Shown here: piece by piece, positions 4,833 through 37,618 of the stretch
How positions within the stretch are numbered: position 1 is the first letter of the stretch
Layout: each line of letters starts with the position of its first letter
From: an uncultured Pelagibacteraceae bacterium
Lineage (GTDB): Bacteria > Pseudomonadota > Alphaproteobacteria > Pelagibacterales > Pelagibacteraceae
NCBI GenBank assembly: GCA_902557155.1
Contig: CACDYR010000002.1
Span: forward strand, 71,025 to 135,024
Direction: 5' to 3'
Length of the DNA: 64,000 bases
The notes under the pieces: model-generated
Seen by the model: only the letters and a program-made list of their open reading frames with translations
What the model was told of the DNA's origin: nothing
The model's database searches: none
Made by a program: the position numbers and the translations under genes

Positions 4833-4882
4833 CTAAAAATATAAATGTTTTGTGATGTGGCAAATATGTTAATATCTTTTAA

Positions 4883-5771: not shown

Positions 5772-5773
5772 AT

Positions 5774-6535
5774 TTATCTTCTTTGACCAAATAATCTCAA
5801 CAACATTATAAATAGATTTATAAAATCTAGATATAAAGTTAAAGCGCCCATTACAGCTTTCTTGCCCATTAACTCTCCTGAGTCTGACGCAACATACATA
5901 TTTTTGATTTTCTGAGTGTCATAAGCTGTCAAACCAACAAATATTAAAACACCTAAAATTGAAATCACAAAATACATCATAGAAGATTTCATGAAGATAT
6001 TAACAATTGAAGCTATAATTATTCCAATTAGACCCATCATTAAAAAAGATCCTAACTTTGTAAGATCTCTTTTAGTTGTGTATCCATAAATGCTCATCGC
6101 TCCAAATGTTGCAGATGTAATGAAGAAAACTCTTGTTACACTCATTCCAGTATAAACCAATAAAATTGAAGATAATGATAGACCCATCAAAGCTGCAAAA
6201 ACCCAAAACGTGGTTTGTGCCTTTGATGCACTCATTTTATTAATTCCAAAACTCATGTAAAAAACGATACCTAGAGGTGCTAACATTACAAGCCATTTAA
6301 GACCTGATAAATAAATTGCATTCCCCATCTGCGTTAGACCAACGATTGAACCTGCATCATTAGTAACAACAGACATTTTAAATGTTAATAGTGCCACTAT
6401 TCCAGTTAGCAATATACCTGTTGCCATGTAGTTATAAACTTTTAGCATGTAGGCTCTTAAACCTTCATCCATTACAGCAGCTGTTTGTTGTGCTGCTTTT
6501 GCTCTATTTAGTATTCCGTTTTTATCAAATTCCAT
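5774..6535 (-). CDS. Bax inhibitor-1/YccA family membrane protein
   Basis: GLRAYMLKVYNYM, TAYDTQKIK, ALTLYLDFINLF. Confidence 0.93.
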   Translation of the reverse strand: MEFDKNGILNRAKAAQQTAAVMDEGLRAYMLKVYNYMATGILLTGIVALLTFKMSVVTNDAGSIVGLTQMGNAIYLSGLKWLVMLAPLGIVFYMSFGINKMSASKAQTTFWVFAALMGLSLSSILLVYTGMSVTRVFFITSATFGAMSIYGYTTKRDLTKLGSFLMMGLIGIIIASIVNIFMKSSMMYFVISILGVLIFVGLTAYDTQKIKNMYVASDSGELMGKKAVMGALTLYLDFINLFIMLLRLFGQRR

Positions 6536-6614
6536 AATAAGTAATATATATATTCTTTTACTAATTATTCAAGATACCTTAAAAGATTAACAAAATTTTA
6601 ACTTAATATTTCTA

Positions 6615-7649: not shown

Positions 7650-8152
7650 TTAAAAAAATTACAATATTTTTAGGAATATTTTTTATAAGTGGTTTTACTC
7701 AACTTTCAGCCCAAGAAATTAAAAAAATTGGAAAATATAAAGATTGGGAAGCAATGGTTGTTATGGATGCTGATGGCAAAGTATGCTTTGCTCAATCACT
7801 GCCTATTTTACAAGCACCCAAAACTAATAAAAGAGATGCAAAATTATTTGTAGCATTCAGACCAAACGACAACATAAAAAATGAGGTAAGTGTTACCCCA
7901 GGTTATGAATTCAACAAAAATAATTCAGTAACAGCTGCTTCAGGGAAGAATAAATTTAAATTTGATATTAAAGAACAGGGTTTTGCGTGGATTGCAGACA
8001 ATAAAATCGAATTAAAAATGATCAAACAAATGAGAAAAGGATCTAGAATTATGATCACTGGCTACAATCAACAAGGTTCTCAAACAATTGATCATTACTC
8101 ATTACTAGGATTTACTAAAGCTTATAACGCTTCAAGAAAAGCTTGCAGTTAA
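7640..8152 (+). CDS. Invasion-associated locus B (IalB) family exported protein
   Basis: Signal peptide; GKYKDW..CFA; YSLLGFTKAY..C. Confidence 0.75.
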   Translation: MSIIKKITIFLGIFFISGFTQLSAQEIKKIGKYKDWEAMVVMDADGKVCFAQSLPILQAPKTNKRDAKLFVAFRPNDNIKNEVSVTPGYEFNKNNSVTAASGKNKFKFDIKEQGFAWIADNKIELKMIKQMRKGSRIMITGYNQQGSQTIDHYSLLGFTKAYNASRKACS

Positions 8153-8156
8153 TTCG

Positions 8157-9344
8157 ATGAAATCAAAAAAGAAAATTGTTCTAGCTTATTCTGGAGGGCT
8201 CGATACCTCTATAATTTTAAAATGGCTTCAAGAAAATTATGATGCAGATGTAATTTGTTACACGGCAGATGTAGGACAAGAAATTGATAGAAAAAAAATT
8301 ATAACTAATGCAAAAAAATTTGGTGTTAAAAATATAATTATTAAAGATTTAAAAGATATTTTTGTTAAAGATTATGTTTATCCCATGATCAGAGGACATG
8401 CGATCTATGAAGGTGTTTATTTACTAGGGACATCGATAGCGAGGCCTCTTATTGCAAAAGATCAAATAAGAGTAGCTAAAAAATTTAAGGCCTATGCAGT
8501 TTCGCATGGAGCAACTGGTAAAGGCAATGACCAAGTTAGATTTGAATTAGGCTATCATTATTTTGGGCCTAAAATTAAAATCATAGCTCCGTGGAGAATT
8601 TGGAAACTAAAATCTAGAACAGACTTAATTAATTATGCAAAAAAACATGGCATAGTTATTCCTAAAGATAAAAAAGGTGCACCTCCTTTTTCAGTGGATG
8701 ATAATTTATTTCATACATCAACTGAAGGTAAGGTTTTAGAAAATCCAAAAAATTCTGCACCAGAATTTATTTTTCAGCGAACAGTTTCTCCAGAAAAAGC
8801 GCCCAACAAACCATCGTTTGTTACTATCAATTTTAAAAATGGTGATCCTTTTGGAATCAACGGAAAAAAAATGTCTCCAGCTAAATTATTAACAAAGCTC
8901 AATGACATTGCAGGTAAAAATGGAATTGGAAGAGTTGACTTAGTAGAGAATAGATTTTTAGGTATAAAATCTAGAGGAGTATATGAAACACCCGGTGGAA
9001 CTCTTTTAATCAATGCTCATAGAGCAATCGAGTCTGTTACTTTAGATAAAGATACTATGCATAAAAAAGATCAGATTATTTCTAGATATGCTGAATTAAT
9101 TTACAATGGTTATTGGTATTCAAAAGAAAGATTTAAACTTCAAAAAATTGTAGATTTAAAAAGAAGTAAAGTTAATGGCTCAATTAAACTTAAATTGTAC
9201 AAAGGAAATATTACAATTCAATCAAGAGTTACTAATAGTGGTGCTTATTCAATGAAGAAGGTTTCATTTGAAGAAAATAAGTCATTTAATAAATCTAACG
9301 TTGAAAGATTTATCAATTTTCATAAGAAAAAGCTTCGTACTTAG
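8157..9344 (+). CDS. argG: Argininosuccinate synthase
   Basis: LAYSGGLDTS, HGATGKGNDQVRFE, RGVYETPGGT. Confidence 0.96.
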   Translation: MKSKKKIVLAYSGGLDTSIILKWLQENYDADVICYTADVGQEIDRKKIITNAKKFGVKNIIIKDLKDIFVKDYVYPMIRGHAIYEGVYLLGTSIARPLIAKDQIRVAKKFKAYAVSHGATGKGNDQVRFELGYHYFGPKIKIIAPWRIWKLKSRTDLINYAKKHGIVIPKDKKGAPPFSVDDNLFHTSTEGKVLENPKNSAPEFIFQRTVSPEKAPNKPSFVTINFKNGDPFGINGKKMSPAKLLTKLNDIAGKNGIGRVDLVENRFLGIKSRGVYETPGGTLLINAHRAIESVTLDKDTMHKKDQIISRYAELIYNGYWYSKERFKLQKIVDLKRSKVNGSIKLKLYKGNITIQSRVTNSGAYSMKKVSFEENKSFNKSNVERFINFHKKKLRT

Positions 9345-9401
9345 ATTGCTTTAGGACAAATTGACATTTGTTTAAATCACTAAAAATTATATCCTTAGAT
9401 C

Positions 9402-9860
9402 ATGGAATCAATAAAGAATTGGATGAGAGATGCTGCAAATATTTTATTTGATGATAGTAAGAACGATCTACGCGCACTTCCTAAAACAGTTAGATTACAA
9501 ATTCTTTTAGTTTTAAGTTTTATTTGGACTACTGTTTTTAGTTTATATGTTTTTTCTTACACAACTTTTGCATTTGGATGGGCTGGACTTTTTTTAGCTC
9601 ATATAGGTTTAATATTTGCCGTCTATATGACTTTTAAACAATTCCATAGAGCAGAAGAGAAGTCTGCAAGTGTTTTTCAAACAAAAAATTTTGATCCTTT
9701 TAAAATCATGGTCATTGTTTTTGTAATAGTATTTATTTTTGTATTTTCAAAAGGAATTGAAGTTTTAACAAGTCCAAACCCGAATTCTTATTCAATCCCT
9801 TATGATGGTCCCTTAAAATCTGCAATTGAAAAATGGTTACCTTTTAGTAAAGATAAATAA
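9402..9860 (+). CDS. Hypothetical membrane protein (about 3 TM)
   Basis: ORF with hydrophobic segments; stop overlaps next start. Confidence 0.7.
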   Translation: MESIKNWMRDAANILFDDSKNDLRALPKTVRLQILLVLSFIWTTVFSLYVFSYTTFAFGWAGLFLAHIGLIFAVYMTFKQFHRAEEKSASVFQTKNFDPFKIMVIVFVIVFIFVFSKGIEVLTSPNPNSYSIPYDGPLKSAIEKWLPFSKDK

Positions 9861-10240
9861 TGGATAAGATAGCAAAAAACTTACAGTTAGCATTAATGGT
9901 TATTATCTTAATCAGTACTGTTATTGCTGTTGGGATTGAGATGAAAAACATGTTTTTAAATCAATCTGTTACATTAGCAGATTTGCTTTTAATGTTTCTT
10001 TATTTGGAGGTACTAGCAATGGTTAGGGTTTTTTGGAACCAACAATCTATTAGTATTACACTACCACTTCTTATTGCGATTACCGCCCTTGCGCGTTTTA
10101 TTATTCTGCAAGGCAAAGAAATGGATCCTACTGCACTTGTTTATGAAGCAGTAGCTATTTTGTTAATAGCTGGAGCAATTGTTGTTTTAAGATTAAGACA
10201 TAGTGACAAATTAGGTCTTAAGAAAAAAAAATCAAAATAA
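9860..10240 (+). CDS. PsiE-family membrane protein
   Basis: LADLLLMFLYLEVLAMV, PLLIAITALARFIIL; 4 TM. Confidence 0.85.
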   Translation: MDKIAKNLQLALMVIILISTVIAVGIEMKNMFLNQSVTLADLLLMFLYLEVLAMVRVFWNQQSISITLPLLIAITALARFIILQGKEMDPTALVYEAVAILLIAGAIVVLRLRHSDKLGLKKKKSK

Positions 10241-10246
10241 TTTAAA

Positions 10247-11386
10247 ATGATATTTGAAGCTTCAAGGGCTAAGGCCTTAAATCAATTAAATTATTTTGTT
10301 GATAATAATCTTGGAGAATATTCAAAATTAAGAAATTTTGATTTTGGGCCTGAAAAAAGATCTAATATATCTTGCTTATCACCATATATAACTCATGGAA
10401 TAATTAATGAACAAGAAGTCGTTCAGAAAGCTCTAAGTAAATTTTCTTATTCAAAAAATGAAAAGTTTATTCAAGAAGTTCTATGGCGAACTTATTGGAA
10501 AGGTTGGTTAGAACTTAGACCAAATGCTTGGACAGATTACCTTGTTGAATTAAATCAAATTAAAAATGAATTTCAAAATGATCAAAATTATCTTAATGCA
10601 ATTAAGGGAAAAACAAACATAGATTGCTTTAATGAGTGGGTGAAAGAGCTTAAAGAAAACAATTATTTGCATAATCACACAAGAATGTGGTTTGCTAGTA
10701 TTTGGATTTTTACTTTAGAATTACCTTGGCAATTAGGTGCAGAATTTTTTATGCAACATCTTTATGATGGGGATGCTGCATCAAATACTCTTGGGTGGCG
10801 ATGGGTTGCGGGTGTTCAAACTCAAGGAAAACATTACCTTGCAAGTGAATGGAATATTAAAAAATTCACTTACAATAGATTTAAAAATATCAAATTAAAT
10901 GAAAATGCTCCTCCAAAAGTATCTGAAAAATCTTATCAAATAATTAAACAGGATTTCAATAACCCACAAAAGATTGAGAATAAGAATCTTTTAATTTTTG
11001 AAAATAATCTCTCGTTTGAAATCACTGACTTTAAGGAAAACAACTTTAAGAAAATTTACTTAGTTTCTAATAAAAATGAAAATAGAGCAATAAAACTCAG
11101 TGAAAAGTTAGTGAAATTTAAATCTCATTTAATAGAAGACCAAGAACAAAGATTAAAAAATCAATCTATTGATTGTCAAATTATAGATATAAGTGAATTA
11201 ACAAATATTGAAAATTATTACGGTTTGTATCCAACAGTAGGTGAAAATTTAGATTTTTTAAATTCTAATAATTTAAAGATAGATTTTTTATATAGAAATC
11301 TTGATCAATTAGCTTGGCAATACTGTAATAAAGGTTTTTTTAATTTTAAAAATTATATTCCTAAAATAGTTTCAAGCTTTAATTAA
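10247..11386 (+). CDS. Photolyase-family protein with N-terminal FAD-binding domain (NewPHL-like domain order)
   Basis: SCLSPYI, FIQEVLWR, YLHNHTRMWFAS, DGDAASNTLGWRWVAG all in the first about 210 aa; no N-terminal antenna domain. Confidence 0.85.
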   Translation: MIFEASRAKALNQLNYFVDNNLGEYSKLRNFDFGPEKRSNISCLSPYITHGIINEQEVVQKALSKFSYSKNEKFIQEVLWRTYWKGWLELRPNAWTDYLVELNQIKNEFQNDQNYLNAIKGKTNIDCFNEWVKELKENNYLHNHTRMWFASIWIFTLELPWQLGAEFFMQHLYDGDAASNTLGWRWVAGVQTQGKHYLASEWNIKKFTYNRFKNIKLNENAPPKVSEKSYQIIKQDFNNPQKIENKNLLIFENNLSFEITDFKENNFKKIYLVSNKNENRAIKLSEKLVKFKSHLIEDQEQRLKNQSIDCQIIDISELTNIENYYGLYPTVGENLDFLNSNNLKIDFLYRNLDQLAWQYCNKGFFNFKNYIPKIVSSFN

Positions 11387-11604
11387 AACCAACGAACCAT
11401 TCCAATAATTCCAGCGGTTGCATAAAAAAATTGCAAAAATAAAATTCCTTTATGACCTCCTCTATAGGCCCAAATTCCAATTAAAATGGCTGACAATAAC
11501 AATAGACAAAACCCAAAAAATTCTATGCCTATATTTAAAGCGACAAACAAAGAATACAATATTGCAGTTATAACTCCTGCCCATTCAAAAATTTTATTAT
11601 TCAT
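11383..11604 (-). CDS. Small 3-TM membrane protein, possibly PnuC half-module
   Basis: Three hydrophobic helices; C-terminal LQFFY...IGMVRW. Confidence 0.6.
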   Translation of the reverse strand: MNNKIFEWAGVITAILYSLFVALNIGIEFFGFCLLLLSAILIGIWAYRGGHKGILFLQFFYATAGIIGMVRWF

Positions 11605-12320
11605 AAAAGTTTTTTAAAATTATTATAAAGGATTGTAGAGTAGTTATTCATATCTTTCATGTTATCTTTTGCAGATTGATCAAACTTTTCTAACGCGCCA
11701 TTACCAAGCTGATCCTCCAAAGCTTTTTTATACTCCGGAACACACCCCCATTCATTTACCGTTGTATCTTTTATTTCTATATGAAATTGAATTCCATAAG
11801 CATGATTTTGATATTTAAAAATTTGATACTTTGTGATTGGAGAAGAGGCTAATAAAGTTATATCTTTATTATTTTCAATACCCTGGACCTCATAAGAATG
11901 CCATTGTAAACTTTTAATTTTGTCAGGAAATTTAGAAAATAATTTATCTAAATTTTTTTGATTGGAGAAATTTATATCCATAATTCCTATTTCTGCTGGT
12001 TTAGATTTAACCACTTTTCCGCCCACTACTTCTCCTAAAAGCTGACAACCTAAACAAAAACCTAAATAAGGTTTTTTTAGATCTACAACAAATTCTTTGA
12101 TTTTTTTCTTTTCTTCAATTAACCATGGGTATTCCTTCTCCATATAGGTATCCATTGGACCCCCCATGCAAAACATTCCATCAAATTTACTTAAATCGCC
12201 TGGTATTTTTTCACCTTCATCTAATTCAATGGTAGTTAAATTAAATCCATCAGCCAACATCAAATCTTTAATGTAACCTGGGTCTTCTATTTTAATATGC
12301 TGTAGTACTATTATGTTCAC
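11601..12320 (-). CDS. Class I glutamine amidotransferase-like protein
   Basis: GGPM, GFCLGCQ (Cys nucleophile), QFHIE (His-x-Glu). Confidence 0.9.
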   Translation of the reverse strand: MNIIVLQHIKIEDPGYIKDLMLADGFNLTTIELDEGEKIPGDLSKFDGMFCMGGPMDTYMEKEYPWLIEEKKKIKEFVVDLKKPYLGFCLGCQLLGEVVGGKVVKSKPAEIGIMDINFSNQKNLDKLFSKFPDKIKSLQWHSYEVQGIENNKDITLLASSPITKYQIFKYQNHAYGIQFHIEIKDTTVNEWGCVPEYKKALEDQLGNGALEKFDQSAKDNMKDMNNYSTILYNNFKKLL

Positions 12321-12325
12321 TAAGC

Positions 12326-12454
12326 TTAGCTTAGCTTAGAACACTTCTTGGAACAATATTTTACTCTATCCCAATTTAACTTCCATTTTTTTCGCCAAGT
12401 AAATGGTCTTTTGCAAACTGGACAAATTTTTGTTGGTAAATTTTCTTTTTTCAT
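12326..12454 (-). CDS. DUF2256-family small zinc-ribbon-like protein (absent from ORF track)
   Basis: Manual translation [42 protein letters not shown] (42 aa); ATG overlaps the upstream TGA (TGATG). Confidence 0.9.
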
Positions 12455-13944
12455 CAAATTGTATTTAGTTTAATAAATTTATCAGCTTCAGATAAAATTA
12501 ATTTTTTTCTATCAGATTTCATTTTATCAAATATTCTTACCATCATCGATAGACGAGGATTTTTTAAAAAAAATTTTCTATTGCGATCGATGAACCTCCA
12601 GTACAAACCATCCATGGTGCTACACCAATCACCTTTCTTAAAGTCCATCATTTTCATAAAATATGCAGATCCACAAATATAAGGTTTGGTTGCAAAAATT
12701 CCTCCATCACTAAATAATCCCATTCCATATACATTGGGAACCATTACCCAGTCTGAGGAGTCTACGAACATTTCCATGAACCATTTGTAAACAATTGTTG
12801 GCTTGATTTCACAAAGGTTCATAATATTTGATAAGATCATTAACCTTTCAATATGATGTGACCAACCATGATTAACGGCATTTTTAATTGCATAATCCAA
12901 AGGTGGAAGACCAGTGGTTCCATCGTACCAAGAATTTTTCATTTTTCTATTTTGTTTGAAAAAATTTCCAGTTTCCATTTCTTGAGAGTATGACTGATAA
13001 ATTCCTCGCATAAATTCTCGCCAACCAATCACTTGACGAATGTAACCCTCTAAAGAATTCATTCTAATTTTATTTTTCTTGTGAAAGTCTAAAACTTTTT
13101 GGACAACAAATTCAGGGGTTATTAAACCTAAATTTATGTAAGGACTTAATGCACTATGGAACAGGATATTATCTTTTTGATCAACTGCATCCTCATAATC
13201 ACCAAAAAGATTAGATTTTTCTTTTATAAAAAAATTCAATAGTTTAACTACATCTTCATATTCCGTTGCAAACCAAAAATTATTTGTACTCCCTGGGTGA
13301 TTTTTAAATTCCTTTTCAATAATAGGCTTTAATTTTTTTGTGTGACTGGTTTCATTTATTTTTGGAAATTTAGGAATTGAAATATTTTTAGGTAATTTAT
13401 TTCTGTTATCTTCATCAAAGCTCCATTTGCCCCCGATTGGATTACCATCTGGACCCATCAATATTCCAGATTTTTTTCTAACATCTTTGTAGAAAGTTGC
13501 CATAAAAGGTTTTTTTGATTTTGATAAATAATTTTTAAATTCAGTTCTTGAATTTAAAAACATAGGAGTTTGAACAACATTCCAGTGTATTTTTTCTTTT
13601 TTTAAAAATTGTGAAATTTTTTTTTCAAAAAATTTATCCTCTACTTCAAAACTAGAAATTTCTTTTACTTTTTTTTCTGTAATTTTTTTTTTTAATTTTT
13701 TTAAATAATCTTCATTAAATTCTTTATCTTCGATTTTAAAGTAATCTAATTTAAATTTGTTTTTTCTTAATCCATCTGCATAAGAACGCATAGAAGATAA
13801 AAATAGTAAAATTTTTTGTTTATGATGCTTTTCATAAGTGCATAAACCCTTATCTTCAGCCATAAAAAATAGGTGGTCTTTTTTGAAGCGGTCTAGGTAT
13901 TTTGTTGGAAATAATTGATTACCAAGTATAAAAAATAACTTCAT
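12454..13944 (-). CDS. Bacterial cryptochrome/(6-4) photolyase, PhrB/CryB class, lacking Fe-S cysteines
   Basis: [54 protein letters not shown]. Confidence 0.92.
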
Positions 13945-13971
13945 AGTTAAATATAACTAATAAAATTTTTT

Positions 13972-14682
13972 ATGTCAGAAAAATATCTAGTTTTTGGTGC
14001 GACAGGTTCTATTGGATCAAGTTTAGCGGAGCAATTAAAAAACTCTGGAAACAATATTCATTTAGTTGGAAGAAATGAAAGTGAACTTAGTTCTGTCGCT
14101 GAAAAACTTGGATGCACACATACCGTTGCAGATGTTTTAGAGGATGGGTTTATAGAAAAAGTTAAATCAGATATTTCTGAAATTAAAGGCCTAGCGTATT
14201 GTGTAGGTTCAATTGATTTGAAACCATTAAGAATGGTAAATGAACAAGACTTTCAAAAATGCATGAAACTTAATCTTTATTCTGCTGTAGAAGCTATTAA
14301 AGGATATCAGGAAAGTTTAAAAAAAAATAAAGGTTCAATAGTTTTATTTTCAACTGTTGCTGCTCAAAGAGGTTTTACCAATCATGCAATCATAGCTTCA
14401 GCAAAAGCTGCTGTTGAAGGATTGACGGTTTCTCTTGCAGCAGAATTCGCTCCAAACATAAGAGTGAATTGTGTGGCACCAAGTTTAACAAAATCTAAAA
14501 TAGCAGAACCAATGTTAAAAAATACTGCTATAGCTGAAGGTATTGCAAAAGCACATCCTCTTAAAAGATTAGGCGAAGGTAAAGACTCTGCTGCTCTTGC
14601 TAAATTCTTACTAACAGAAGATAGTTCTTGGGTTACAGGCCAAATAATTGCTGTAGATGGTGGTAGATCTAAACTTTCATAA
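13972..14682 (+). CDS. Short-chain dehydrogenase/reductase
   Basis: GATGSIG, ASAK, IRVNCVAP, VTGQIIAVDGG. Confidence 0.9.
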   Translation: MSEKYLVFGATGSIGSSLAEQLKNSGNNIHLVGRNESELSSVAEKLGCTHTVADVLEDGFIEKVKSDISEIKGLAYCVGSIDLKPLRMVNEQDFQKCMKLNLYSAVEAIKGYQESLKKNKGSIVLFSTVAAQRGFTNHAIIASAKAAVEGLTVSLAAEFAPNIRVNCVAPSLTKSKIAEPMLKNTAIAEGIAKAHPLKRLGEGKDSAALAKFLLTEDSSWVTGQIIAVDGGRSKLS

Positions 14683-15751
14683 AGTGATCAAATATTTTTT
14701 ATCGATATTTTTCTTTTTATTATTTTCATCGAAAAGTTTTTCTGAAAATTTTACTTTTAAAAAATTGACAGATTTAAATGACCCATGGGGATCATCTTTT
14801 ATAAATAATGAAGAGCTTATTATCACTGAAAAAACTGGAAAAATAAAAATAGTAAATATTATTTCTGAAGAAGTTTATGAAGTTGAACATAACTTAAATT
14901 ATTTTGTTCACGGACAAGGAGGCTTATTAGATATTATTTACAAAGATAATTACTTATGGATTTCTTATTCAGAAAATAGAGGAGACTGGAAAACTAGTAC
15001 ATCAATTGCAAAAGCTAAATTAAATAAAAAAAATTTAGATTTCAAAAATATATTTCAAGCTGAACCACCAATAGAATCTGGTTATCATTTCGGTTCAAGA
15101 CTGGCTATAAAAGAAAATTATCTTTTTGCATCTGCTGGTGAAAGAGGTGGTGGTATGATTGCTCAAGATCCGACTAGCCATCCTGGAAGTATTATCAGAA
15201 TTTATTTAGATGGTAGTATTCCAGAAGATAACCCTAAGTTTGATGGTAAATCAGATTGGTTACCAGAAATTTATCAAATTGGTGTTCGTAATCCTCAAGG
15301 TCTAACCTATTCCTCTTTTGATGGAAAAATTTATGCAAGCAACCATGGTGCAAAAGGTGGTGATTGGTTTGGTGAGATTAAAAAGGGAGAAAATTATGGT
15401 TGGAAAATTTTAGGTTGGGGCGGAACAAATTATTCAGGCTCAAAGATTGGACCTAAATGGAAACCAGGTTTTACTAAGGCAATCCAATACTGGGTACCTT
15501 CAATAGCTGCAAGTGCAATAACTATTTATAAGGGAAAAGAATTTAATGAATGGGATGGCGAAGCGCTCATTACTTCTTTAAAAGATAAATCAATGAGAAA
15601 ATTAAACTTTAAAAATTCATCAAAGATTGAAGAAGCAGTTATTTTCAAAGATAAAATTGGAAGAATAAGAGATATACAAGTTCACCCAGTTAATGGAAAA
15701 ATATATTTTCTTGCGGGAAACAGTTTGTGGTTAATGGAGAAAAAAAAATAA
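14657..15751 (+). CDS. PQQ-dependent sugar dehydrogenase (GSDH/YliI family); true start probably GTG near 14684
   Basis: GQGGLLDI, HFGSRL, GVRNPQGL, NYGW, GRIRDI; signal peptide. Confidence 0.9.
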   Translation: MVVDLNFHKVIKYFLSIFFFLLFSSKSFSENFTFKKLTDLNDPWGSSFINNEELIITEKTGKIKIVNIISEEVYEVEHNLNYFVHGQGGLLDIIYKDNYLWISYSENRGDWKTSTSIAKAKLNKKNLDFKNIFQAEPPIESGYHFGSRLAIKENYLFASAGERGGGMIAQDPTSHPGSIIRIYLDGSIPEDNPKFDGKSDWLPEIYQIGVRNPQGLTYSSFDGKIYASNHGAKGGDWFGEIKKGENYGWKILGWGGTNYSGSKIGPKWKPGFTKAIQYWVPSIAASAITIYKGKEFNEWDGEALITSLKDKSMRKLNFKNSSKIEEAVIFKDKIGRIRDIQVHPVNGKIYFLAGNSLWLMEKKK

Positions 15752-32920: not shown

Positions 32921-34458
32921 TGAAGAAAAAAATCAAAACAGCTCTCATATCTGTATCTGACAAAAATAACTTAAAACCATTGCTAAATATTTTAAAAAAA
33001 AACAAAATTAAAATAATTAGCTCAGGTGGTACTTATAAAAAAATTAAAAAATTAAAATTTAACTGTTTAGAAGTATCTGATTTTACTAGTTCCCCCGAGA
33101 TTTTGGAGGGTAGGGTAAAAACTCTTCATCCAAAAATTCATGCAGGGATTTTAAGTAAAAGAGAAAAAAAATCTCACTTAAAAGATCTTAAAGATAATAA
33201 TTTTGAGAATATTGATTTAGTAATAGTTAATTTTTATCCATTTGAGAACACTCTTAAAAAAACAAATAATCATCTAAAAATTATTGAAAATATAGATGTA
33301 GGTGGTCCCACTATGGTTAGATCGGCGGCAAAAAACTACAATGATGTAGCTGTAATAACTTCTCCAGATCAATATGAGGAGTTAATTCAAGAACTAAAAA
33401 AATTCAAGGGATCTACTTCTTTAAATTTTAGAGAAAAACTATCAAGAATAGCGTTTGCTGAGACGGCATATTATGACTCTGTGATTTCAAACTATTTTAA
33501 CAAAAAAACAAATACTATTTTCCCCAAGAAAAAAATTTTTCATGGAAATCTAATAGAGCAACTTAGATATGGTGAAAATCCTCACCAATTAAGCGCAATT
33601 TATTCCAGTAGTTCAAATATGAACTTAAAACAAATTCATGGAAAACAGCTTAGTTATAACAATTATAATGACATATTTAGCGCTCTTACTATTTCAAGAT
33701 CTTTACCAAAAGGGAAAGGAACAGTCATAGTTAAGCACGCAAACCCGTGTGGAGTTTCTGCTAAAAATGATCATTTAGAGAGTTATAAGTCCGCTCTGTC
33801 TTGTGACCCTGTAAGTGCTTTTGGTGGAATAGTTTCTTGTAATTTTAAAATTAAAAGAGATTTAGCTGTTGAATTAAATAAGTTATTTTTAGAAGTAATA
33901 ATTGCAAATGGTTTCGATAGCAATTCAATCAAAATATTAAATGCTAAAAAAAACTTAAGATTGATTGATGGAACAAATTATACATCAGGAGAACTTTTTA
34001 AGTTTGTATCATTTAATCAAGATATAATGATGCAATCAGAGGACTTAAATATATTTGCAAAAAAAAATTTTAAAGTTGTATCAAAACGAAAACCAACATC
34101 TAAACAACTTAAAGATCTAATTTTTGCTTTTAATGTATGTAGGTATGTAAAATCAAATGCAATAGTATTAGCATCTAATGAAGCTACTGTTGGTATTGGT
34201 TCTGGTCAACCAAGTAGACTAGATAGTTGCCAAATAGCAATAAATAAAATGAAAAAATTTAATCTTCAGACTGATAATTTAGTAGCAGCCTCAGACGCAT
34301 TTTTTCCTTTTGTAGATGGTATCGAAAAATTAGTCCAATCAGGTGTTAGAGCTGTTATTCAACCATCTGGATCAATAAGAGATAAAGAAATAATTAATTT
34401 TGCAAACGAGACTGATACTGTGCTTCTTTTTTCAGAGACAAGACATTTTAGACATTAG
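32920..34458 (+). CDS. purH: AICAR transformylase/IMP cyclohydrolase
   Basis: GRVKTLHP, IDVGGPTMVR, LRYGENPHQ, KHANPCG, SDAFFPF. Confidence 0.98.
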   Translation: MKKKIKTALISVSDKNNLKPLLNILKKNKIKIISSGGTYKKIKKLKFNCLEVSDFTSSPEILEGRVKTLHPKIHAGILSKREKKSHLKDLKDNNFENIDLVIVNFYPFENTLKKTNNHLKIIENIDVGGPTMVRSAAKNYNDVAVITSPDQYEELIQELKKFKGSTSLNFREKLSRIAFAETAYYDSVISNYFNKKTNTIFPKKKIFHGNLIEQLRYGENPHQLSAIYSSSSNMNLKQIHGKQLSYNNYNDIFSALTISRSLPKGKGTVIVKHANPCGVSAKNDHLESYKSALSCDPVSAFGGIVSCNFKIKRDLAVELNKLFLEVIIANGFDSNSIKILNAKKNLRLIDGTNYTSGELFKFVSFNQDIMMQSEDLNIFAKKNFKVVSKRKPTSKQLKDLIFAFNVCRYVKSNAIVLASNEATVGIGSGQPSRLDSCQIAINKMKKFNLQTDNLVAASDAFFPFVDGIEKLVQSGVRAVIQPSGSIRDKEIINFANETDTVLLFSETRHFRH

Positions 34459-34792
34459 TTATTTTATCTATTTTTGCAGCAAGAATAAAATCACTCTCGG
34501 CAAGACCCTTTATCGCATGCGTAAATATTTTAATTCTCGCATAACCCCACCCAAACCATAGATCAGGATGATGACCTTCAGCTTCAGCTATTTGTCCAAC
34601 TTTATTGACAAATTCCTGACTTTTTAAAAAGTTATCAAATTTAAAATTCTTGATTAAATGAAAGCCATCAATTTTATCTTCTAAAACTTCCCAGCCATCA
34701 ACTTTTTTAAGATATTTATGTATCTCCTCTGCATTAAATGGAGGAATATTTCCTTCACAAGGAACACACTTTTTGTTTGCTAGATCACTCAT
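34448..34792 (-). CDS. Pterin-4-alpha-carbinolamine dehydratase (start corrected to MSDLANKK)
   Basis: CVPC, EGHHPDL, FTHAIKGL..DFILAAKID; the longer ORF call overlaps the tRNA. Confidence 0.92.
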   Translation of the reverse strand: MSDLANKKCVPCEGNIPPFNAEEIHKYLKKVDGWEVLEDKIDGFHLIKNFKFDNFLKSQEFVNKVGQIAEAEGHHPDLWFGWGYARIKIFTHAIKGLAESDFILAAKIDKITNV

Positions 34793-34801
34793 AATTTTTT
34801 T

Positions 34802-34876
34802 TGGAGCGGGCAAAGGGGGTCGAACCCTCGACCTTCTCGTTGGCAACGAGACGCTCTACCACTGAGCTATGCCCGC
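34802..34876 (-). tRNA. tRNA-Gly(GCC)
   Basis: GCGGGCATAGCTCAGTGGTAGAGCGTCTCGTTGCCAACGAGAAGGTCGAGGGTTCGACCCCCTTTGCCCGCTCCA; cloverleaf, GCC anticodon, encoded CCA. Confidence 0.98.
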
Positions 34877-34878
34877 TT
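34837..34878. repeat. att core copy 1 (42-bp direct repeat = 5' half of tRNA-Gly)
   Basis: TCGTTGGCAACGAGACGCTCTACCACTGAGCTATGCCCGCTT, identical to 36668-36709. Confidence 0.97.
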
Positions 34879-34893
34879 CTTAAATTATTATTG

Positions 34894-34922
34894 AAATTAG
34901 AGGCTTTTTAAAAATTTAGCAA
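34894..34922 (-). promoter_or_regulatory. Island-supplied candidate sigma70 promoter for the intact tRNA-Gly
   Basis: Minus strand TTGCTA-N17-TAATTT, 17 nt upstream of the tRNA 5' end. Confidence 0.45.
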
Positions 34923-34949
34923 GAGGCTATTTTAGTAAAATTTGGACCC

Positions 34950-34971
34950 AACTGTGCCGACAGTGTGCCGA
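34950..34971. repeat. Tandem arm-type repeat pair (left end)
   Basis: TGTGCCGA at 34953 and 34964 (11-bp period). Confidence 0.65.
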
Positions 34972-34990
34972 GATTTTAGATAAAAATTTT

Positions 34991-35018
34991 ATCTGGGGCT
35001 GCATGCAGTGCCCCAGAT
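34991..35018. terminator. GC-rich hairpin just downstream of the HNH gene; probable terminator
   Basis: ATCTGGGGC-N10-GCCCCAGAT, 9-bp perfect stem flanked by A/T tracts. Confidence 0.7.
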
Positions 35019-35024
35019 TAGTTT

Positions 35025-35447
35025 TTAATTTTCAATGTAAGGTATTTGCAATTCCCAATAGCCAGCTACTTTCATATGTTCATGAAAATTTTCATGGCAG
35101 TTGTTACACAAAGCAACTACATCTTGCATGGGAACTTCTCTAAACTTTACACCATGATATTTATTATGATGAGCACATTGTGAAGATCTAGCACAGTTCA
35201 CGCATTTTGGTGAATTAGCTAAAGTATACGCAGAAACAGCCTGCCAATGGTCTGTTTTATAGTACATCTTTAACGTAAGCATCTCACACACAAAGTGTCC
35301 ATGTTCAATAATGATACTTGCTTGCCTGAAATCATTTCGCTTCAGAGCATCTTCTTTTTCACGGAATAATTTATTAGCTAAATCAAAGAGCTTGTCTGTT
35401 CCTAAAAGATTTCTTGCGTTATCATAATCTTGTTTGGTTCTGCTCAT
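35025..35447 (-). CDS. HNH-family endonuclease with CxxC...CxxCH zinc site
   Basis: YYKTDHWQ..., CVNC, HH, LCNNCHENFH; AGGAGG Shine-Dalgarno 8 nt before ATG. Confidence 0.8.
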   Translation of the reverse strand: MSRTKQDYDNARNLLGTDKLFDLANKLFREKEDALKRNDFRQASIIIEHGHFVCEMLTLKMYYKTDHWQAVSAYTLANSPKCVNCARSSQCAHHNKYHGVKFREVPMQDVVALCNNCHENFHEHMKVAGYWELQIPYIEN

Positions 35448-35763
35448 AGTTATTTCCTCCTTTCTTCCTTTTTTAAAAAAGGAAATAACCCTAAATTCTT
35501 GTTACACTTTTCTTTTAGTGAGTCAACAGAACATTCATAGAAAGAAATGTGTACGTAGTTATAGTTTCGTTATCATTTAATTATAATAAGGTTATTTTTT
35601 TTTTGGCTTAAAATAACAATTTTTAAAGAATTTATTTTAGATATCTAAAAAATAAAACTTATACAAATTTATCCCCATGAATATTTATTTAAAACCTATG
35701 GTTTTTTAAATCTTAGGGTGTGTGCAAATTATGGAATTAGATGATATTTTTTGATACTCTAAA

Positions 35764-36357
35764 TTGATGTTAGGTGATTTATTACTAGACTTTTTAGACC
35801 AAAAAAAAGTCATTAAAAATTCTGCTAAAGAGTTTGCAAGACTTTACGATTTTTTTGAAATTTATAAAAAATCAACCCCTGAAAATTTTAAAAAATACAT
35901 TGATGAACAAAATGAATATATAATCTCAGAAATTCTAACGAGTTTATATTTAATCGCTTATGTGGCCAAAATTCGAAACAACAAAAAACTAATATTTAAA
36001 TCTGCTTTTCAAAAAGACGAATTTTTCATGCAAGATATCTTTCTTCAAAATAAAGATATTAGAAAAGTTTTTACAACCGAATATCAAATTATAATAACTG
36101 CATTATCAAGTAAATTTGGTATGGATAAAAAGGATGTAAAATTAGTCATAGATGGAATGCACGCTATTTTAATACTTAAGACTGAGGAAAAAAATAAAGA
36201 GGAACCAGATGAAACGCCAATACCTGATTTTTCTTCTATAGCTCAATCTTTAGATAATGACTTTCGTAAAATTGAAGATTTTGAGAACGACTCACCTGAT
36301 AAAATAGATAATTTTGTTAAAAAATTAATTGAAAAACATTATTGGGGAAAAAACTAA
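35764..36357 (+). CDS. Hypothetical protein (island cargo)
   Basis: 197-aa ORF, helical-looking with acidic C-terminal third; no motif recognised. Confidence 0.65.
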   Translation: MMLGDLLLDFLDQKKVIKNSAKEFARLYDFFEIYKKSTPENFKKYIDEQNEYIISEILTSLYLIAYVAKIRNNKKLIFKSAFQKDEFFMQDIFLQNKDIRKVFTTEYQIIITALSSKFGMDKKDVKLVIDGMHAILILKTEEKNKEEPDETPIPDFSSIAQSLDNDFRKIEDFENDSPDKIDNFVKKLIEKHYWGKN

Positions 36358-36539
36358 TCTTTGGGACTTATTTTTCTTAATTTTTTATTTTGAATATAAA
36401 TTATACCTATAAGTAAAAATACTAACAAAGGGTAAGCAATAATAAATATGATGATATTTATTAATTCATAACTAGTTCCAGTGAGATCTGCCAACCAAAC
36501 AAGAATATCTACACATAAATAAAAAATATAATCAATCAT
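36354..36539 (-). CDS. Small membrane protein (island cargo)
   Basis: 61 aa; amphipathic N-terminus, TM helix, basic tail. Confidence 0.6.
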   Translation of the reverse strand: MIDYIFYLCVDILVWLADLTGTSYELINIIIFIIAYPLLVFLLIGIIYIQNKKLRKISPKD

Positions 36540-36587
36540 TAATCTTTTAATTAATATTAATTTTGACTTATGTTCTTTTTTTTTCTT

Positions 36588-36609
36588 AACTGTGTCGTCA
36601 GTGTGTCAA
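36588..36609. repeat. Tandem arm-type repeat pair (right end)
   Basis: TGTGTCGT at 36591 and TGTGTCAA at 36602 (11-bp period); 17/21 identical to 34950-34970. Confidence 0.65.
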
Positions 36610-36667
36610 AAAATAAAGTTAACGTAAAAATTACAGAAAATTGAGTTATTTATTAAAGAATTAAGGA

Positions 36668-36709
36668 TCGTTGGCAACGAGACGCTCTACCACTGAGCTA
36701 TGCCCGCTT
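36668..36709 (-). repeat. att core copy 2: orphan 5' half of tRNA-Gly
   Basis: tRNA nt 1-40 plus 2 upstream nt; no T-arm or 3' acceptor strand follows. Confidence 0.97.
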
Positions 36710-36720
36710 GTTTAAAAAAC

Positions 36721-36749
36721 ATTGTAGTTAGCGGTTTTTATAAATGCAA
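36721..36749 (-). promoter_or_regulatory. Probable native sigma70 promoter of tRNA-Gly, now facing into the island
   Basis: Minus strand TTGCAT-N17-TACAAT, 13 nt upstream of the tRNA-half 5' end. Confidence 0.65.
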
Positions 36750-36766
36750 GCAATAAGAAGAAATTT

Positions 36767-37618
36767 TTATTTTAGATAATTTAATTCTTTTAAATTATTT
36801 TCAAAAATTGAATTTAATTTATTTTGGTAGCTTTTATCAAATATGCTTTTCCAATCGTTTTTTGGTCCTAAATGAAAAAAAGGAATTTTTTTAGGATCAT
36901 TTTTTGATAAAACAGATTCCAGAAAACCACTGTTTTTTTCCATGTTTTTTAAATTTTCAAAATTACATGATTTTACAGAATTTTGAGCTTTTAAGTTATT
37001 AATCTCTTTTTTTTCTTGAATAGTATTTTGAATAAAATCTATTATTTCCCTTAAAATGTCTAAAGGTTTGACTATAAGATCTTCATACTTAATTAATTTA
37101 ACTGGGAAAATCTTTTGATTTATCCAGGACTTATAATTTTTTTCCCAAGAACTTATAAATTGAAAATCACTAAAATCGTTTTTTACATGGTAATCGTGGA
37201 TATATTTTTTTTCACTTAACATAAATTTCAAAGCTTCATCTTTAGATAATTCATAATGATTTTGTAAAGAGGTTAATACATTTCTTGGATCGCGCACAAT
37301 GTAAATAGCACCAATAGTGTTTTTTTTATTTGTAAAATTACTGTTATTGATTGATCCTAAAATATTATGGGTTTTGAGAAAATTTAATTCATTATTTAAA
37401 TTTATTTTTTCCTGAGCTTTAATCCAAAATTTAGATGTGTCAGTTACTATTTTTGGATCATAATTAAAATCGCTAAAATGTCTTTTTTCAGGGAATTGAT
37501 CAATATTTTTAAGTAAATCTTGATTGAAAATGCCTTCTTCTGAATAAAAATATGATGACAACAATGCTCTTAACCATGTGTTCCCACTTTTGGGATATGA
37601 GGCTATCCAAAATATCAT
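36767..37618 (-). CDS. PAPS-dependent sulfotransferase (Sulfotransfer_1-like), paralogue 1
   Basis: [10 protein letters not shown] (5'-PSB loop), LKTH, YIVRDPRN..S (3'-PB), KYEDL. Confidence 0.92.
   Translation of the reverse strand: MIFWIASYPKSGNTWLRALLSSYFYSEEGIFNQDLLKNIDQFPEKRHFSDFNYDPKIVTDTSKFWIKAQEKINLNNELNFLKTHNILGSINNSNFTNKKNTIGAIYIVRDPRNVLTSLQNHYELSKDEALKFMLSEKKYIHDYHVKNDFSDFQFISSWEKNYKSWINQKIFPVKLIKYEDLIVKPLDILREIIDFIQNTIQEKKEINNLKAQNSVKSCNFENLKNMEKNSGFLESVLSKNDPKKIPFFHLGPKNDWKSIFDKSYQNKLNSIFENNLKELNYLK

What the first reader, a model, noticed from the sequence alone, without database searches (positions are those of the whole stretch)
34950..36609. Paired 11-bp-period TGTG(C/T)C repeats at both island ends resemble integrase arm-type sites
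Seen: AACTGTGCCGACAGTGTGCCG (34950-34970) and AACTGTGTCGTCAGTGTGTCA (36588-36608) are 17/21 identical and in the same orientation. Each is a tandem pair with 11-bp period, about 70 and 60 bp inside the core repeats. GC-containing repeats like this stand out in such AT-rich DNA. Established: tyrosine integrases with N-terminal arm-binding domains bind tandem direct repeats of about 10 bp flanking the attP core. Inference: the motif is a fingerprint of the missing helper integrase.
Basis: partly seen in the sequence, partly recalled or inferred. Interest (0 to 1): 0.7.

Follow-up and report, generated by a model that had tools for sequence, protein, structure and literature searches.

The report
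Integrase arm sites flanking SAR11 island
Two short doubled DNA words at the ends of a 1.8-kb gene island in a Pelagibacter (SAR11) glycine tRNA gene are almost certainly docking sites for a phage-P2-type integrase encoded in other strains, and the same words mark many integrase-less islands across SAR11.

Summary
The pattern TGTGYC-N5-TGTGYC occurs twice in the window and twice in the whole 1.27-Mb genome, both times inside the tRNA-Gly(GCC) island (34953-34969 and 36591-36607, same strand).

The arm-type-site reading is supported by comparison.
- In about 30 Pelagibacterales species the doublet lies exactly 68 nt (a few 67) from the anticodon of the displaced tRNA-Gly 5' fragment.
- It also lies about 124 nt upstream of the anticodon of the intact tRNA.
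- The 60-nt spacer is only 20-42% identical between islands, while the motif is 88-94% identical.
- tRNA-Met islands show the same geometry (+67 / -124).
- In 5-kb islands at the same tRNA-Gly site, a near-identical doublet (22/23) ends 14 nt before the start codon of a 316-aa tyrosine integrase.
- Sixteen of 21 related integrase lineages carry their own 11-bp-period doublet at that position.
- The integrase resembles phage P2 Int and has a predicted three-strand-plus-helix N-terminal domain. P2's annotated Int arm sites are also 11-bp-period doublets on both arms.

The window's genome has no matching integrase. The island is therefore an integrase-less, att-flanked cassette, like a cis-mobilizable element (CIME). 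Protein binding and mobility remain untested. This is a new member of a known kind.

The parts
34802..34876 (-). Intact tRNA-Gly(GCC). Its 5' 40 nt and promoter are supplied by the island. The first anticodon base is at 34844.
   Evidence: ARAGORN; repeat analysis; offsets.
34837..34878 (.). Core direct repeat, copy 1: 42 bp exact, covering tRNA positions -2 to +40. The crossover is inferred to lie in or next to the anticodon loop.
   Evidence: the repeat finder family D1. Across islands, identity to the tRNA ends 1-3 nt after the anticodon loop.
34879..34949 (-). P-arm spacer. It holds the island-borne upstream region and the likely promoter of the tRNA (TTTAAA-17-AATAAT at 34912-34884).
   Evidence: It is homologous to the same segment in L052/L053.
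34950..34970 (+). P-arm arm-type doublet (TGTGCC-N5-TGTGCC at 34953-34969). Read in tRNA sense it is GGCACA-CTGTC-GGCACA and starts 125 nt upstream of the anticodon.
   Evidence: The doublet is at -124 in 20 and -123 in one of 24 other Pelagibacterales tRNA-Gly islands.
34993..35016 (-). GC-rich hairpin (CTGGGGC-TGCATGCAGT-GCCCCAG) just downstream of the HNH-like ORF. Probably its terminator; not part of the arm.
   Evidence: Read directly from the sequence; inverted repeat I9.
35025..35447 (-). Cargo ORF, 140 aa, weak HNH-endonuclease-like match.
   Evidence: PHROG phrog_8060 at 7.7e-7 and phrog_119 (HNH) at 5.8e-5; Pfam only below threshold.
35764..36357 (+). Cargo ORF, 197 aa, unknown function. 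A homologue sits in the 0.9-kb island of L052 at the same site.
   Evidence: 73.6% nucleotide identity to L052:5858-7721, about the same as the flanking core genes.
36354..36539 (-). 61-aa hydrophobic ORF. It occupies the position that int holds in integrase-bearing relatives, and its start is 48 nt from the P' doublet.
36588..36608 (+). P'-arm arm-type doublet (TGTGTC-N5-TGTGTC at 36591-36607). Read in tRNA sense it is GACACA-CTGAC-GACACA and starts 68 nt after the anticodon of the displaced fragment.
   Evidence: It is 22/23 identical to the int-proximal doublet of L070-L073. The +68 offset is seen in 26 of 30 species and +67 in the other 4.
36609..36667 (.). P'-arm spacer. Its length is conserved but not its sequence.
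   Evidence: Spacer identity is 20-42% between islands against 88-94% for the motif.
36668..36709 (.). Core direct repeat, copy 2: the displaced chromosomal 5' half of tRNA-Gly. Its first anticodon base is at 36675.

Best explanation
The two 21-bp elements are the P-arm and P'-arm arm-type binding sites of a heterobivalent tyrosine integrase of the phage P2/186 kind. Each is a tandem pair of about 7-bp half-sites one helical turn (11 bp) apart.

How it would work:
- Two N-terminal domains of the integrase would sit on one face of the DNA at each doublet. The catalytic and core-binding domains of the same proteins act on the core, which here is the anticodon arm of tRNA-Gly(GCC).
- The island is the integrated form of a small circle. 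Its attP read: doublet, about 110 bp holding a promoter and the tRNA 5' half, the crossover in or beside the anticodon loop, a 61-bp spacer, doublet.
- Integration displaced the chromosomal 5' half of the tRNA to 36668-36709.

The island has no integrase. Its genome holds only one island-type integrase, on another contig, and that one has a different arm word (TCGTCAT). The matching enzyme is the 316-318-aa integrase carried by 5-kb elements at the same tRNA-Gly site in other Pelagibacter strains (HIMB4, HIMB1509, HIMB1695, HIMB1746 and a single-cell genome).

The island is therefore an integrase-less, att-flanked cassette, like a cis-mobilizable element (CIME). It could move only if such an integrase is supplied in trans.

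Shown: the sequences, their rarity, their fixed geometry, the link to integrase genes, lineage-specific motifs, and the kinship and predicted N-domain of the integrase. Inferred: protein binding, the crossover position and trans-mobilisation. I put trans-mobilisation today at about even odds.
For: Rarity:
- There are 2 hits in 1.27 Mb, both in the island.

Fixed geometry with diverged spacers:
- The P' doublet is at +68 from the anticodon in WIN, L052-54 and L061-62. The P doublet is at -124/-125 in the four integrase-less islands and -143 in integrase-bearing L061/L062.
- tRNA-Met islands give +67 eighteen times, +68 twice and +66 once on the P' side. On the P side they give -124 three times and -123 once.
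- Among 30 Pelagibacterales species the core-to-doublet gap is 61 nt in 26 and 60 nt in 4.
- Spacer identity is 20-42% against 88-94% for the motif.

Link to the integrase:
- The 22/23-identical doublet ends 14 nt before the int start codon at the same tRNA-Gly site.
- In 16 of 21 integrase lineages the best tandem repeat in the 60 nt upstream of int has an 11-bp period, and its word is lineage-specific.
- The element on contig C13 of this genome carries its own word, TCGTCAT-N4-TCGTCAT, at both ends.

The enzyme:
- PF00589 matches, and alignment A1 keeps the residues I read as the catalytic set of tyrosine recombinases: R194, H266 and Y303 in all 21 sequences, K219 and R269 in at least 90%.
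- The best PDB sequence match is the P2 Int catalytic domain, 9e-8.
- The AlphaFold model has pLDDT 90 with an N-domain of three strands plus a helix, residues 1-48.
- Full-length lambda Int aligns over 329-335 columns, against 270 for the construct lacking the arm domain.
- hhalign of the N-domain profile against P2 Int residues 3-40 gives probability 73.5% and E 2.9e-5.

Precedent:
- GenBank AF063097 annotates the P2 Int P and P' arm sites. Both are TGTGGNC(A) doublets with an 11-bp period in the same orientation.
- Full-length homologues in Acinetobacter phage fEg-Aba01 (attP annotated) and Pseudomonas phage PAJU2 show the same layout.

Not a promoter:
- No sigma-70-like promoter overlaps either doublet.
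Against: - No binding or recombination data exist.
- Foldseek on the isolated 58-aa N-domain found nothing significant, and Pfam does not assign it.
- In the two integrase-bearing tRNA-Gly elements examined, the P-arm doublet lies at -143 (L061) or about -150 with a 9-bp period (L150). The integrase-less islands have it at -124. The exact partner of the -124 islands may therefore be an unsampled lineage.
- The island's cargo gene is about as diverged from L052's as the core flanks are. The island may be old and fixed, and its arms relics.
- The P' doublet always sits just upstream of a gene start, so a purely regulatory role is not excluded.
Confidence: 0.8

Rival explanations
1. The doublets are operators or promoter elements for the gene just downstream (int, the 61-aa ORF, cassette genes, the tRNA). 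A transcription factor such as an OmpR/PhoB-type response regulator would bind them, since those regulators also recognise 11-bp-period direct repeats. They would have no role in recombination.
For: - The P' doublet ends 12-30 nt before a start codon in nearly all integrase loci and about 20 nt before each cassette gene in the tRNA-Met arrays.
- Its reverse complement often reads TTGACA.
- The period and half-site length resemble a Pho box (my own knowledge).
Against: - No consensus -10 follows at 16-18 nt, and the scan finds no promoter over either doublet.
- A second doublet lies on the other side of the core, where the neighbouring gene differs.
- The distance is fixed to the anticodon, not to the start codon.
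- The word changes with the integrase lineage. A host regulator would not show that.
Confidence: 0.07
2. The doublets bind an accessory recombination protein instead of the integrase N-domain. This could be an excisionase or recombination directionality factor, or a Cox-like protein.
For: - Xis and Cox proteins bind tandem direct repeats in att arms. P2 Cox sites are annotated in AF063097.
- Some linked elements carry small unassigned ORFs.
Against: - The 5-kb L061 element shows no ORF resembling an excisionase.
- Accessory-factor sites normally lie on one arm only (my own knowledge). Here the same doublet is on both arms.
- The doublet architecture matches the sites annotated as Int arm sites in P2, not its Cox sites.
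Confidence: 0.06
3. The match is chance or shared descent with no function: GC-containing words that survived in AT-rich DNA, or leftovers of a duplicated segment.
For: Only two copies occur in the window, and each half-site is short.
Against: - Expected pairs are about 0.05 per genome.
- 112 of 401 family genomes carry the pattern, against about 9 stray matches to the reversed control.
- Offsets are identical in dozens of species and at two different tRNAs, while the flanking spacers have randomised.
Confidence: 0.01

Closest known systems
attP arm-binding sites of phages P2 and 186 (Int N-terminal domain; PMC3448106; GenBank AF063097 annotation)
   Same: - Two direct repeats lie on each side of the core, in the same orientation, about 28 bp per arm, with an 11-bp period.
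- The whole attP spans about 200 bp.
- The integrase is the closest solved relative by sequence, and its N-domain aligns by hhalign.
- 186-type integrases also target tRNA genes.
   Different: - The word differs: GRCACA / TGTGYC against TGTGGACA or GCCAC.
- The P' doublet sits upstream of int and abuts its ribosome-binding site. P2's lies at the 3' end of int.
- The core is the anticodon arm and the element supplies the tRNA's 5' half.
- Here the island has no int at all.
Lambda Int arm-type sites (P1, P2, P'1-P'3)
   Same: Heterobivalent logic: an N-terminal three-strand-plus-helix domain binds arm repeats while the rest of the protein acts at the core. Full-length lambda Int structures align with the model over its whole length.
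   Different: Lambda has five sites in a different arrangement and depends on IHF, Xis and Fis. No accessory sites were identified here.
Cis-mobilizable elements (CIMEs) and other integrase-less att-flanked islands (PMC5704250, PMC6323972)
   Same: The island is flanked by attL and attR, has no recombinase, and shares its attB with integrase-bearing elements.
   Different: CIMEs were defined next to integrative conjugative elements of Firmicutes and are mobilised after accretion with one. Here the partners are 5-kb non-conjugative elements, one of them satellite-like. Mobilisation has not been observed.
SAR11 tRNA-linked genomic islands and pelagiphage attP sites (PMC11796062; bioRxiv 10.1101/410191)
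   Same: Partial tRNA repeats mark cassette insertions in SAR11. HTVC019P-type pelagiphages also integrate in the middle or 5' end of tRNA genes and supply the 5' part.
   Different: Those papers report no arm sites: 'arm' has no occurrence in 10.1101/410191, and no searchable paper pairs 'arm-type' with Pelagibacter. PMC11796062 reports 'no canonical mobile genetic elements' and only one integrase. The integrase family found here gave no pelagiphage among the listed best matches.
Tycheposons of Prochlorococcus (bioRxiv 10.1101/2020.12.28.424599)
   Same: These are tRNA-targeting tyrosine-recombinase elements in a streamlined marine bacterium. They include tandem integrations, degenerate remnants, and cargo-carrying and PICI-like types.
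   Different: The host and integrase clades differ. That paper does not mention arm sites or SAR11.

Membership tests
Arm-type sites of heterobivalent tyrosine integrases (lambda/P2/186 class) | Direct repeats, distinct in sequence from the core, present on both sides of the core | tested here: met
   Doublets at 34953-34969 and 36591-36607 flank the tRNA-derived core repeats. The same holds in dozens of related islands.
Arm-type sites of heterobivalent tyrosine integrases (lambda/P2/186 class) | Adjacent half-sites about one helical turn apart | tested here: met
   The period is 11 bp here. It is 11 bp in 16 of 21 integrase lineages and in the annotated P2 Int arm sites.
Arm-type sites of heterobivalent tyrosine integrases (lambda/P2/186 class) | Fixed position relative to the crossover, independent of spacer sequence | tested here: met
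   Offsets are +68/+67 and -124/-125 at both tRNA-Gly and tRNA-Met. Spacers are 20-42% identical. Integrase-bearing elements differ on the P side, at -143 and about -150.
Arm-type sites of heterobivalent tyrosine integrases (lambda/P2/186 class) | The cognate integrase has an extra N-terminal DNA-binding domain ahead of the core-binding and catalytic domains | tested here: met
   The AlphaFold model shows three strands and a helix in residues 1-48 with pLDDT about 90. hhalign to the P2 Int N-domain gives E 2.9e-5. Foldseek on the isolated domain was inconclusive. The enzyme is encoded in relatives, not in this genome.
Arm-type sites of heterobivalent tyrosine integrases (lambda/P2/186 class) | The repeat sequence varies with the integrase lineage | tested here: met
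   About 14 different words lie upstream of 21 integrase lineages, and close relatives share a word. The C13 element has TCGTCAT at both ends.
Arm-type sites of heterobivalent tyrosine integrases (lambda/P2/186 class) | The integrase N-domain physically binds the repeats, and they are needed for recombination | not testable with these tools
   This needs gel-shift or footprinting and recombination assays.
Cis-mobilizable element (integrase-less att-flanked island) | Flanked by attL and attR, with no recombinase gene inside | tested here: met
   The island has three ORFs and none resembles a recombinase. tblastn with the integrase hits nothing in the window.
Cis-mobilizable element (integrase-less att-flanked island) | An integrase-bearing element uses the same attB and the same arm word | tested here: met
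   L061, L062, L107, L116, L131, L140 and L146/L150 all sit at tRNA-Gly(GCC) with GRCACA doublets at +68.
Cis-mobilizable element (integrase-less att-flanked island) | Excision or transfer demonstrated when the integrase is supplied | not testable with these tools
   Metagenome contigs show only that the island is rare, about 4-5x against about 1000x for the flanks. No junction informative about excision was seen.
OmpR/PhoB-type regulator box (rival) | The box replaces or abuts the -35 of a promoter with a proper -10 downstream | tested here: not met
   No promoter-like site overlaps either doublet. The position tracks the anticodon, not the downstream gene.
Integron attC site (considered for the tRNA-Met cassette arrays) | Imperfect inverted repeat recombined as folded single strand by an IntI integrase with its extra domain | not tested
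   The junctions are a tRNA-Met anticodon-arm copy plus one direct-repeat doublet. An integron integrase model gave only weak sub-threshold matches to the two island integrases scanned.

The most novel reading that the evidence does not exclude
SAR11 may run a trans-acting gene-cassette economy that works somewhat like an integron.
- Many small integrase-less cassettes keep a tRNA-anticodon-arm core plus GRCACA arm doublets at a fixed geometry.
- These include one-gene cassettes stacked up to 11 deep upstream of tRNA-Met (for example G146, locus L048). Each such cassette carries only a core copy and a single P' doublet 67 nt away.
- The cassettes would be inserted, excised or shuffled by rare P2-like integrases. 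Related integrases were found in about 8% of genomes, some on terS-carrying satellite-like elements.

This would give a concrete enzyme-and-site mechanism for the flexible genome of the ocean's most abundant bacterium, which has been described as lacking canonical mobile elements.
Probability: 0.3. Interest if true: 0.8.

Novelty: new member of a known kind. Interest (0 to 1): 0.55.

Why it matters
SAR11 genomic islands are often tRNA-linked, yet they are reported to contain almost no integrases or other canonical mobile elements (PMC11796062).

This work gives three practical handles:
- **A searchable signature.** A simple pattern (core plus a doublet at a fixed offset) finds integrase-less cassettes.
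- **A link to an enzyme family.** The signature ties those cassettes to a defined integrase family.
- **Culturable test strains.** Strains HIMB4, HIMB1509, HIMB1695 and HIMB1746 carry the candidate helper integrase, so excision and trans-mobilisation can be tested directly.

For the general biology of site-specific recombination the result is expected rather than surprising. It is the P2/186 attP layout in a new host.

Tried and rejected
**Searches that found nothing relevant**
- Viral contigs: a strict motif scan gave 17 hits, all in DNA of 39-66% GC and none near a tRNA-Gly fragment, so chance. The core-plus-spacer-plus-doublet patterns for tRNA-Gly and tRNA-Met gave no low-GC hit.
- blastn of the island against 50,697 phage records gave only two short, irrelevant matches.

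**Inconclusive results**
- Foldseek on the isolated N-domain model gave no significant match, as often happens with a 58-residue query. One of 21 integrases touches Pfam Arm-DNA-bind_4 at E 0.019.
- Metagenome contigs laid on the locus were checked for excision junctions. The island is present but rare. The one 'back-join' turned out to be the P' junction of an L061-type element, not a circle junction of this island.

**Readings considered and rejected**
- The genome's own island-type integrase (contig C13, at tRNA-Arg) as the helper. Its element uses a different doublet (TCGTCAT) and C13 has no TGTGYC pair.
- Reading the reverse complement (TTGACA...) as a -35 box. No acceptable -10 follows and the scan finds no promoter there.
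- DnaA box and IHF site readings. The consensus does not fit (my own inspection).
- Orthology or collinearity of the array cassettes as a test of mobility. The proteins are only 35-67% identical within and between genomes, so the test is uninformative.
- A P-arm doublet inside the array cassettes. There is none, with at least 4 mismatches of the 12 specified bases.
Full report
**1. The observation**

The window has about 29% GC. Its relatives are Pelagibacter / Pelagibacteraceae, the SAR11 group (record titles).

A single tRNA, tRNA-Gly(GCC), lies at 34802-34876 on the minus strand. An exact 42-bp direct repeat, 34837-34878 / 36668-36709, copies the tRNA from position -2 to +40, which is its 5' half. 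Similarity continues at 81% over 86 nt into the upstream region. The repeat pair brackets a 1.8-kb island. The island holds three ORFs:
- a weak HNH-like ORF;
- a 197-aa ORF of unknown function;
- a 61-aa hydrophobic ORF.

No recombinase is present.

They are 17/21 identical and on the same strand. They lie 71 bp and 59 bp inside the repeats.

The pattern TGTGYC-N5-TGTGYC is rare. Even with one mismatch it matches only these two places in the window, where shuffles give an expected 0.17. It also matches only these two places in the whole 1.27-Mb assembly. From the hexamer count, about 0.05 pairs would be expected.

**2. The motif is a family-wide, att-linked feature**

In 401 genomes of the same family, 112 carry the pattern. 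The reversed-pattern control gives about 9 stray matches in all. Hits typically come as same-strand pairs 0.6-5 kb apart.

In the fetched loci the doublets sit beside tRNA genes or tRNA fragments: Gly-GCC, two different Met-CAT genes, Phe, Glu and Thr.

For the tRNA-Gli islands the geometry is exact, where "tRNA-Gli" should read tRNA-Gly:
- In tRNA sense, the doublet after the displaced fragment starts 68 nt after the first anticodon base in WIN, L052, L053, L054, L061 and L062.
- The doublet before the intact tRNA starts at -124 or -125 in the integrase-less islands. It starts at -143 in the integrase-bearing L061/L062.

tRNA-Met islands and cassettes give the same numbers. On the P' side the offset is +67 eighteen times, +68 twice and +66 once. 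On the P side it is -124 three times and -123 once.

A scan of one genome per species (185,579 species) used the anticodon loop, a 59-63-nt gap and the doublet. It returned 46 loci.
- Thirty are Pelagibacterales loci with the tRNA-Gly 5' fragment. Their gap is 61 nt in 26 and 60 nt in 4.
- The 17 matches without the full fragment mostly have the minimum gap of 59 and high GC, so they look like chance hits.
- In 20 of the 24 Pelagibacterales loci where the intact tRNA is in view, the second doublet is at -124. It is at -123 in one and at -143 in the two integrase-bearing loci.

Between islands, the 60-nt spacer is 20-42% identical and the doublet 88-94% identical. A conserved distance with an unconserved spacer is what a protein-imposed geometry predicts.

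**3. The linked enzyme**

At the same tRNA-Gly site between the same flanking genes, G225 and G188 carry a 5-kb island (loci L061 and L062). It encodes:
- a 316-aa tyrosine recombinase (PF00589 at 2.6e-15; PHROG integrase family at 5.5e-47);
- Rieske, DUF4396, cupredoxin and cytochrome c cargo;
- a 513-aa protein of unknown function.

Its distal doublet reads TTTTGACACACTGATGACACAG on the int sense strand. That is 22/23 identical to the window's TTTTGACACACTGACGACACAG. The doublet ends 14 nt before the int start codon.

Homologues of this integrase occur in 33 of 401 family genomes. A tandem direct repeat lies upstream of nearly every one, a few nucleotides before the ribosome-binding site.
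- In 16 of 21 distinct lineages, the best exact repeat in the 60 nt upstream has an 11-bp period.
- The word differs between lineages: GACACA, CGACAC, GTACTCA, TGTCACA, GGTCGCA, GGCGTCA, ATGACGA, CCGGCACA, GAGCACA and others. Close relatives share a word.

The window's own genome gives an internal control. Contig C13 carries a 6.3-kb element in tRNA-Arg(TCT) with a 332-aa integrase of this family. That element has TCGTCAT-N4-TCGTCAT at both ends and no TGTGYC pair. The genome therefore has an island-type integrase, but with a different arm word and a different tRNA target. At 95% assembly completeness, the tRNA-Gly island's partner is absent.

**4. Kinship and fold of the integrase**

- Alignment A1 keeps the residues I read as the catalytic set of tyrosine recombinases. 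R194, H266 and Y303 are invariant, and K219 and R269 are present in at least 90% of sequences.
- By sequence, the best solved relative is the catalytic domain of phage P2 integrase (5c6k, 9e-8).
- BLASTP against full-length P2 Int gives 23% identity over 223 residues.
- The AlphaFold model has mean pLDDT 90. Residues 1-48 form three strands (2-7, 10-15, 23-27) and a helix (30-48), ahead of the usual core-binding and catalytic domains. From my own knowledge, this is the topology described for the arm-binding domains of lambda and Tn916 integrases.
- Full-length lambda Int chains align with the model over 329-335 columns. The construct lacking the arm domain aligns over 270.
- A profile of the 21 N-domains aligns with P2 Int residues 3-40 (hhalign probability 73.5%, E 2.9e-5).
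- Foldseek with the isolated 58-residue domain found nothing significant. I count that as inconclusive.

**5. Precedent**

The P2 GenBank record annotates 'Int P arm' and 'Int P' arm' binding sites. [quoted passage not shown] The whole attP spans about 200 bp.

[quoted passage not shown] These are recognised by the N-terminal domain, and group-specific consensus words track N-domain residues.

Full-length homologues of the SAR11 integrase (32-33% identity) occur in two isolated temperate phages:
- Acinetobacter phage fEg-Aba01 has GTGCAAC-N4-GTGCAGC-type doublets on both sides of its annotated attP core. One lies about 12 nt before the int ATG.
- Pseudomonas phage PAJU2 has GGGGGAATC-CT-GGGGGAATC on both sides of a tRNA-like core.

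The layout is therefore a trait of this integrase family.

**6. Mechanism**

I conclude that the two elements are the P and P' arm-type sites left in attR and attL when a small circular element integrated.

The crossover is probably in or beside the anticodon loop. In different islands, identity to the tRNA ends 1-3 nt after the loop, at ...AACG...AACGA or ...AACGAG. The element must also supply everything 5' of the crossover to restore the tRNA.

The island now lacks int. It matches the definition of a cis-mobilizable, integrase-less element and could be moved only by an integrase supplied in trans. Candidate helpers are the elements in HIMB4, HIMB1509, HIMB1695 and HIMB1746, whose integrases are 100% identical to each other. 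A second lineage at the same site (L146/L150) also encodes a primase-like protein and a small terminase subunit, so it looks like a phage satellite.

Two caveats apply:
- In these integrase-bearing elements the P-side doublet is at -143, or at about -150 with a 9-bp period. It is not at -124.
- The window's 197-aa cargo gene is about as diverged from its L052 homologue (73.6%) as the flanking core genes are. The island may be ancient and its arms may persist without current use.

Metagenome contigs show that the island is a rare variant, at about 4-5x against about 1000x for the shared flanks. They gave no junction informative about excision. One sample also holds an L061-type P' junction.

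**7. Rivals**

- **Promoter or operator.** This is weakened by several results. No promoter-like site overlaps the doublets. A doublet sits on both arms. The distance is anchored on the anticodon. The word changes with the integrase lineage. The P' doublet could still double as an operator for int.
- **Excisionase or Cox-type sites.** This is unlikely because the same doublet is on both arms, and the 5-kb element shows no ORF resembling an excisionase.
- **Chance.** This is excluded by the counts.

**8. Literature**

- SAR11 islands with partial tRNA repeats are described, with the remark that canonical mobile elements and integrases are nearly absent (PMC11796062).
- tRNA-anchored hypervariable regions are discussed in bioRxiv 10.64898/2026.04.03.716430.
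- Pelagiphage integration into the middle or 5' end of tRNAs is shown in bioRxiv 10.1101/410191.
- 'Arm' has no occurrence in the pelagiphage or tycheposon papers. No searchable paper pairs 'arm-type' with Pelagibacter.

**9. Verdict**

This is a new member of a well-known kind (P2/186-type attP architecture). It has practical value as a signature for the integrase-less cassettes of SAR11.

The more novel possibility is a trans-acting cassette system. It would include the one-armed single-gene cassette arrays at tRNA-Met. That possibility remains open.

Noticed in passing
L048 (G146:C1:512000-531000) 6700-15040; also L049, L050, L051: Tandem arrays of up to 11 single-gene cassettes of about 690 bp lie upstream of tRNA-Met. 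Each cassette encodes a roughly 190-aa secreted-looking paralogue (MKRLLLILILTLSFQ...ADDIRDFEIEG), and the paralogues are 35-67% identical. Each cassette is preceded by a 27-nt copy of the tRNA-Met anticodon arm and, 67 nt later, one GACACA-N5-GACACA doublet about 20 nt before the ATG. No second (P-arm) doublet is present.
   Followed up: partly
Own genome, contig C13:2350-8820 (outside the window): A 6.3-kb integrative element sits in tRNA-Arg(TCT). It has a 332-aa integrase of the same family, a 603-aa protein with a P-loop, and its own 11-bp-period doublet TCGTCAT-N4-TCGTCAT near both ends (about 8666-8683 and about 2575-2595).
   Followed up: partly
L150 (G401:C2:44000-62000) 2540-7990: A 5.4-kb element at tRNA-Gly(GCC) carries an integrase, a primase-like 614-aa protein and a small terminase subunit (phrog_51, 1.2e-10). 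This is a PICI-like satellite layout in a Pelagibacteraceae single-cell genome. Its P-side doublet has a 9-bp period at about -150.
   Followed up: partly
L053 and L054 P' arms; L055, L056 and L059 P arms: Extra half-sites occur. A third GACACA lies 10 bp after the P' doublet in the common 1649-bp tRNA-Gly island. A third GRCACA lies 26 bp upstream of the P doublet in the tRNA-Met islands.
   Followed up: no
L105, L110, L113, L114, L117 and others: The same 1649-bp (in two genomes 1648-bp) integrase-less island occupies the tRNA-Gly site in 17 different Pelagibacterales species representatives. The window's 1831-bp version, with the HNH gene, is a rarer variant.
   Followed up: partly
window 34400-37200 laid on metagenome runs X1, X2, X3, X8: Island sequence is present at about 4-5x word depth, while the flanking core and tRNA reach hundreds to thousands. 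The island is therefore a low-frequency variant in natural SAR11 populations.
   Followed up: partly
G087:C1 549075, 569592 and 1381844: In this complete genome the int-proximal doublet and its usual partner word (TGTGCCAAGAGTGTGTC) are about 830 kb apart. In G225 and G188 they are 5 kb apart. This may be a rearrangement between att sites.
   Followed up: no
window 34993-35016: A near-perfect GC-rich hairpin (CTGGGGC...GCCCCAG) lies between the P-arm doublet and the 3' end of the HNH-like ORF. It is probably that gene's terminator.
   Followed up: no
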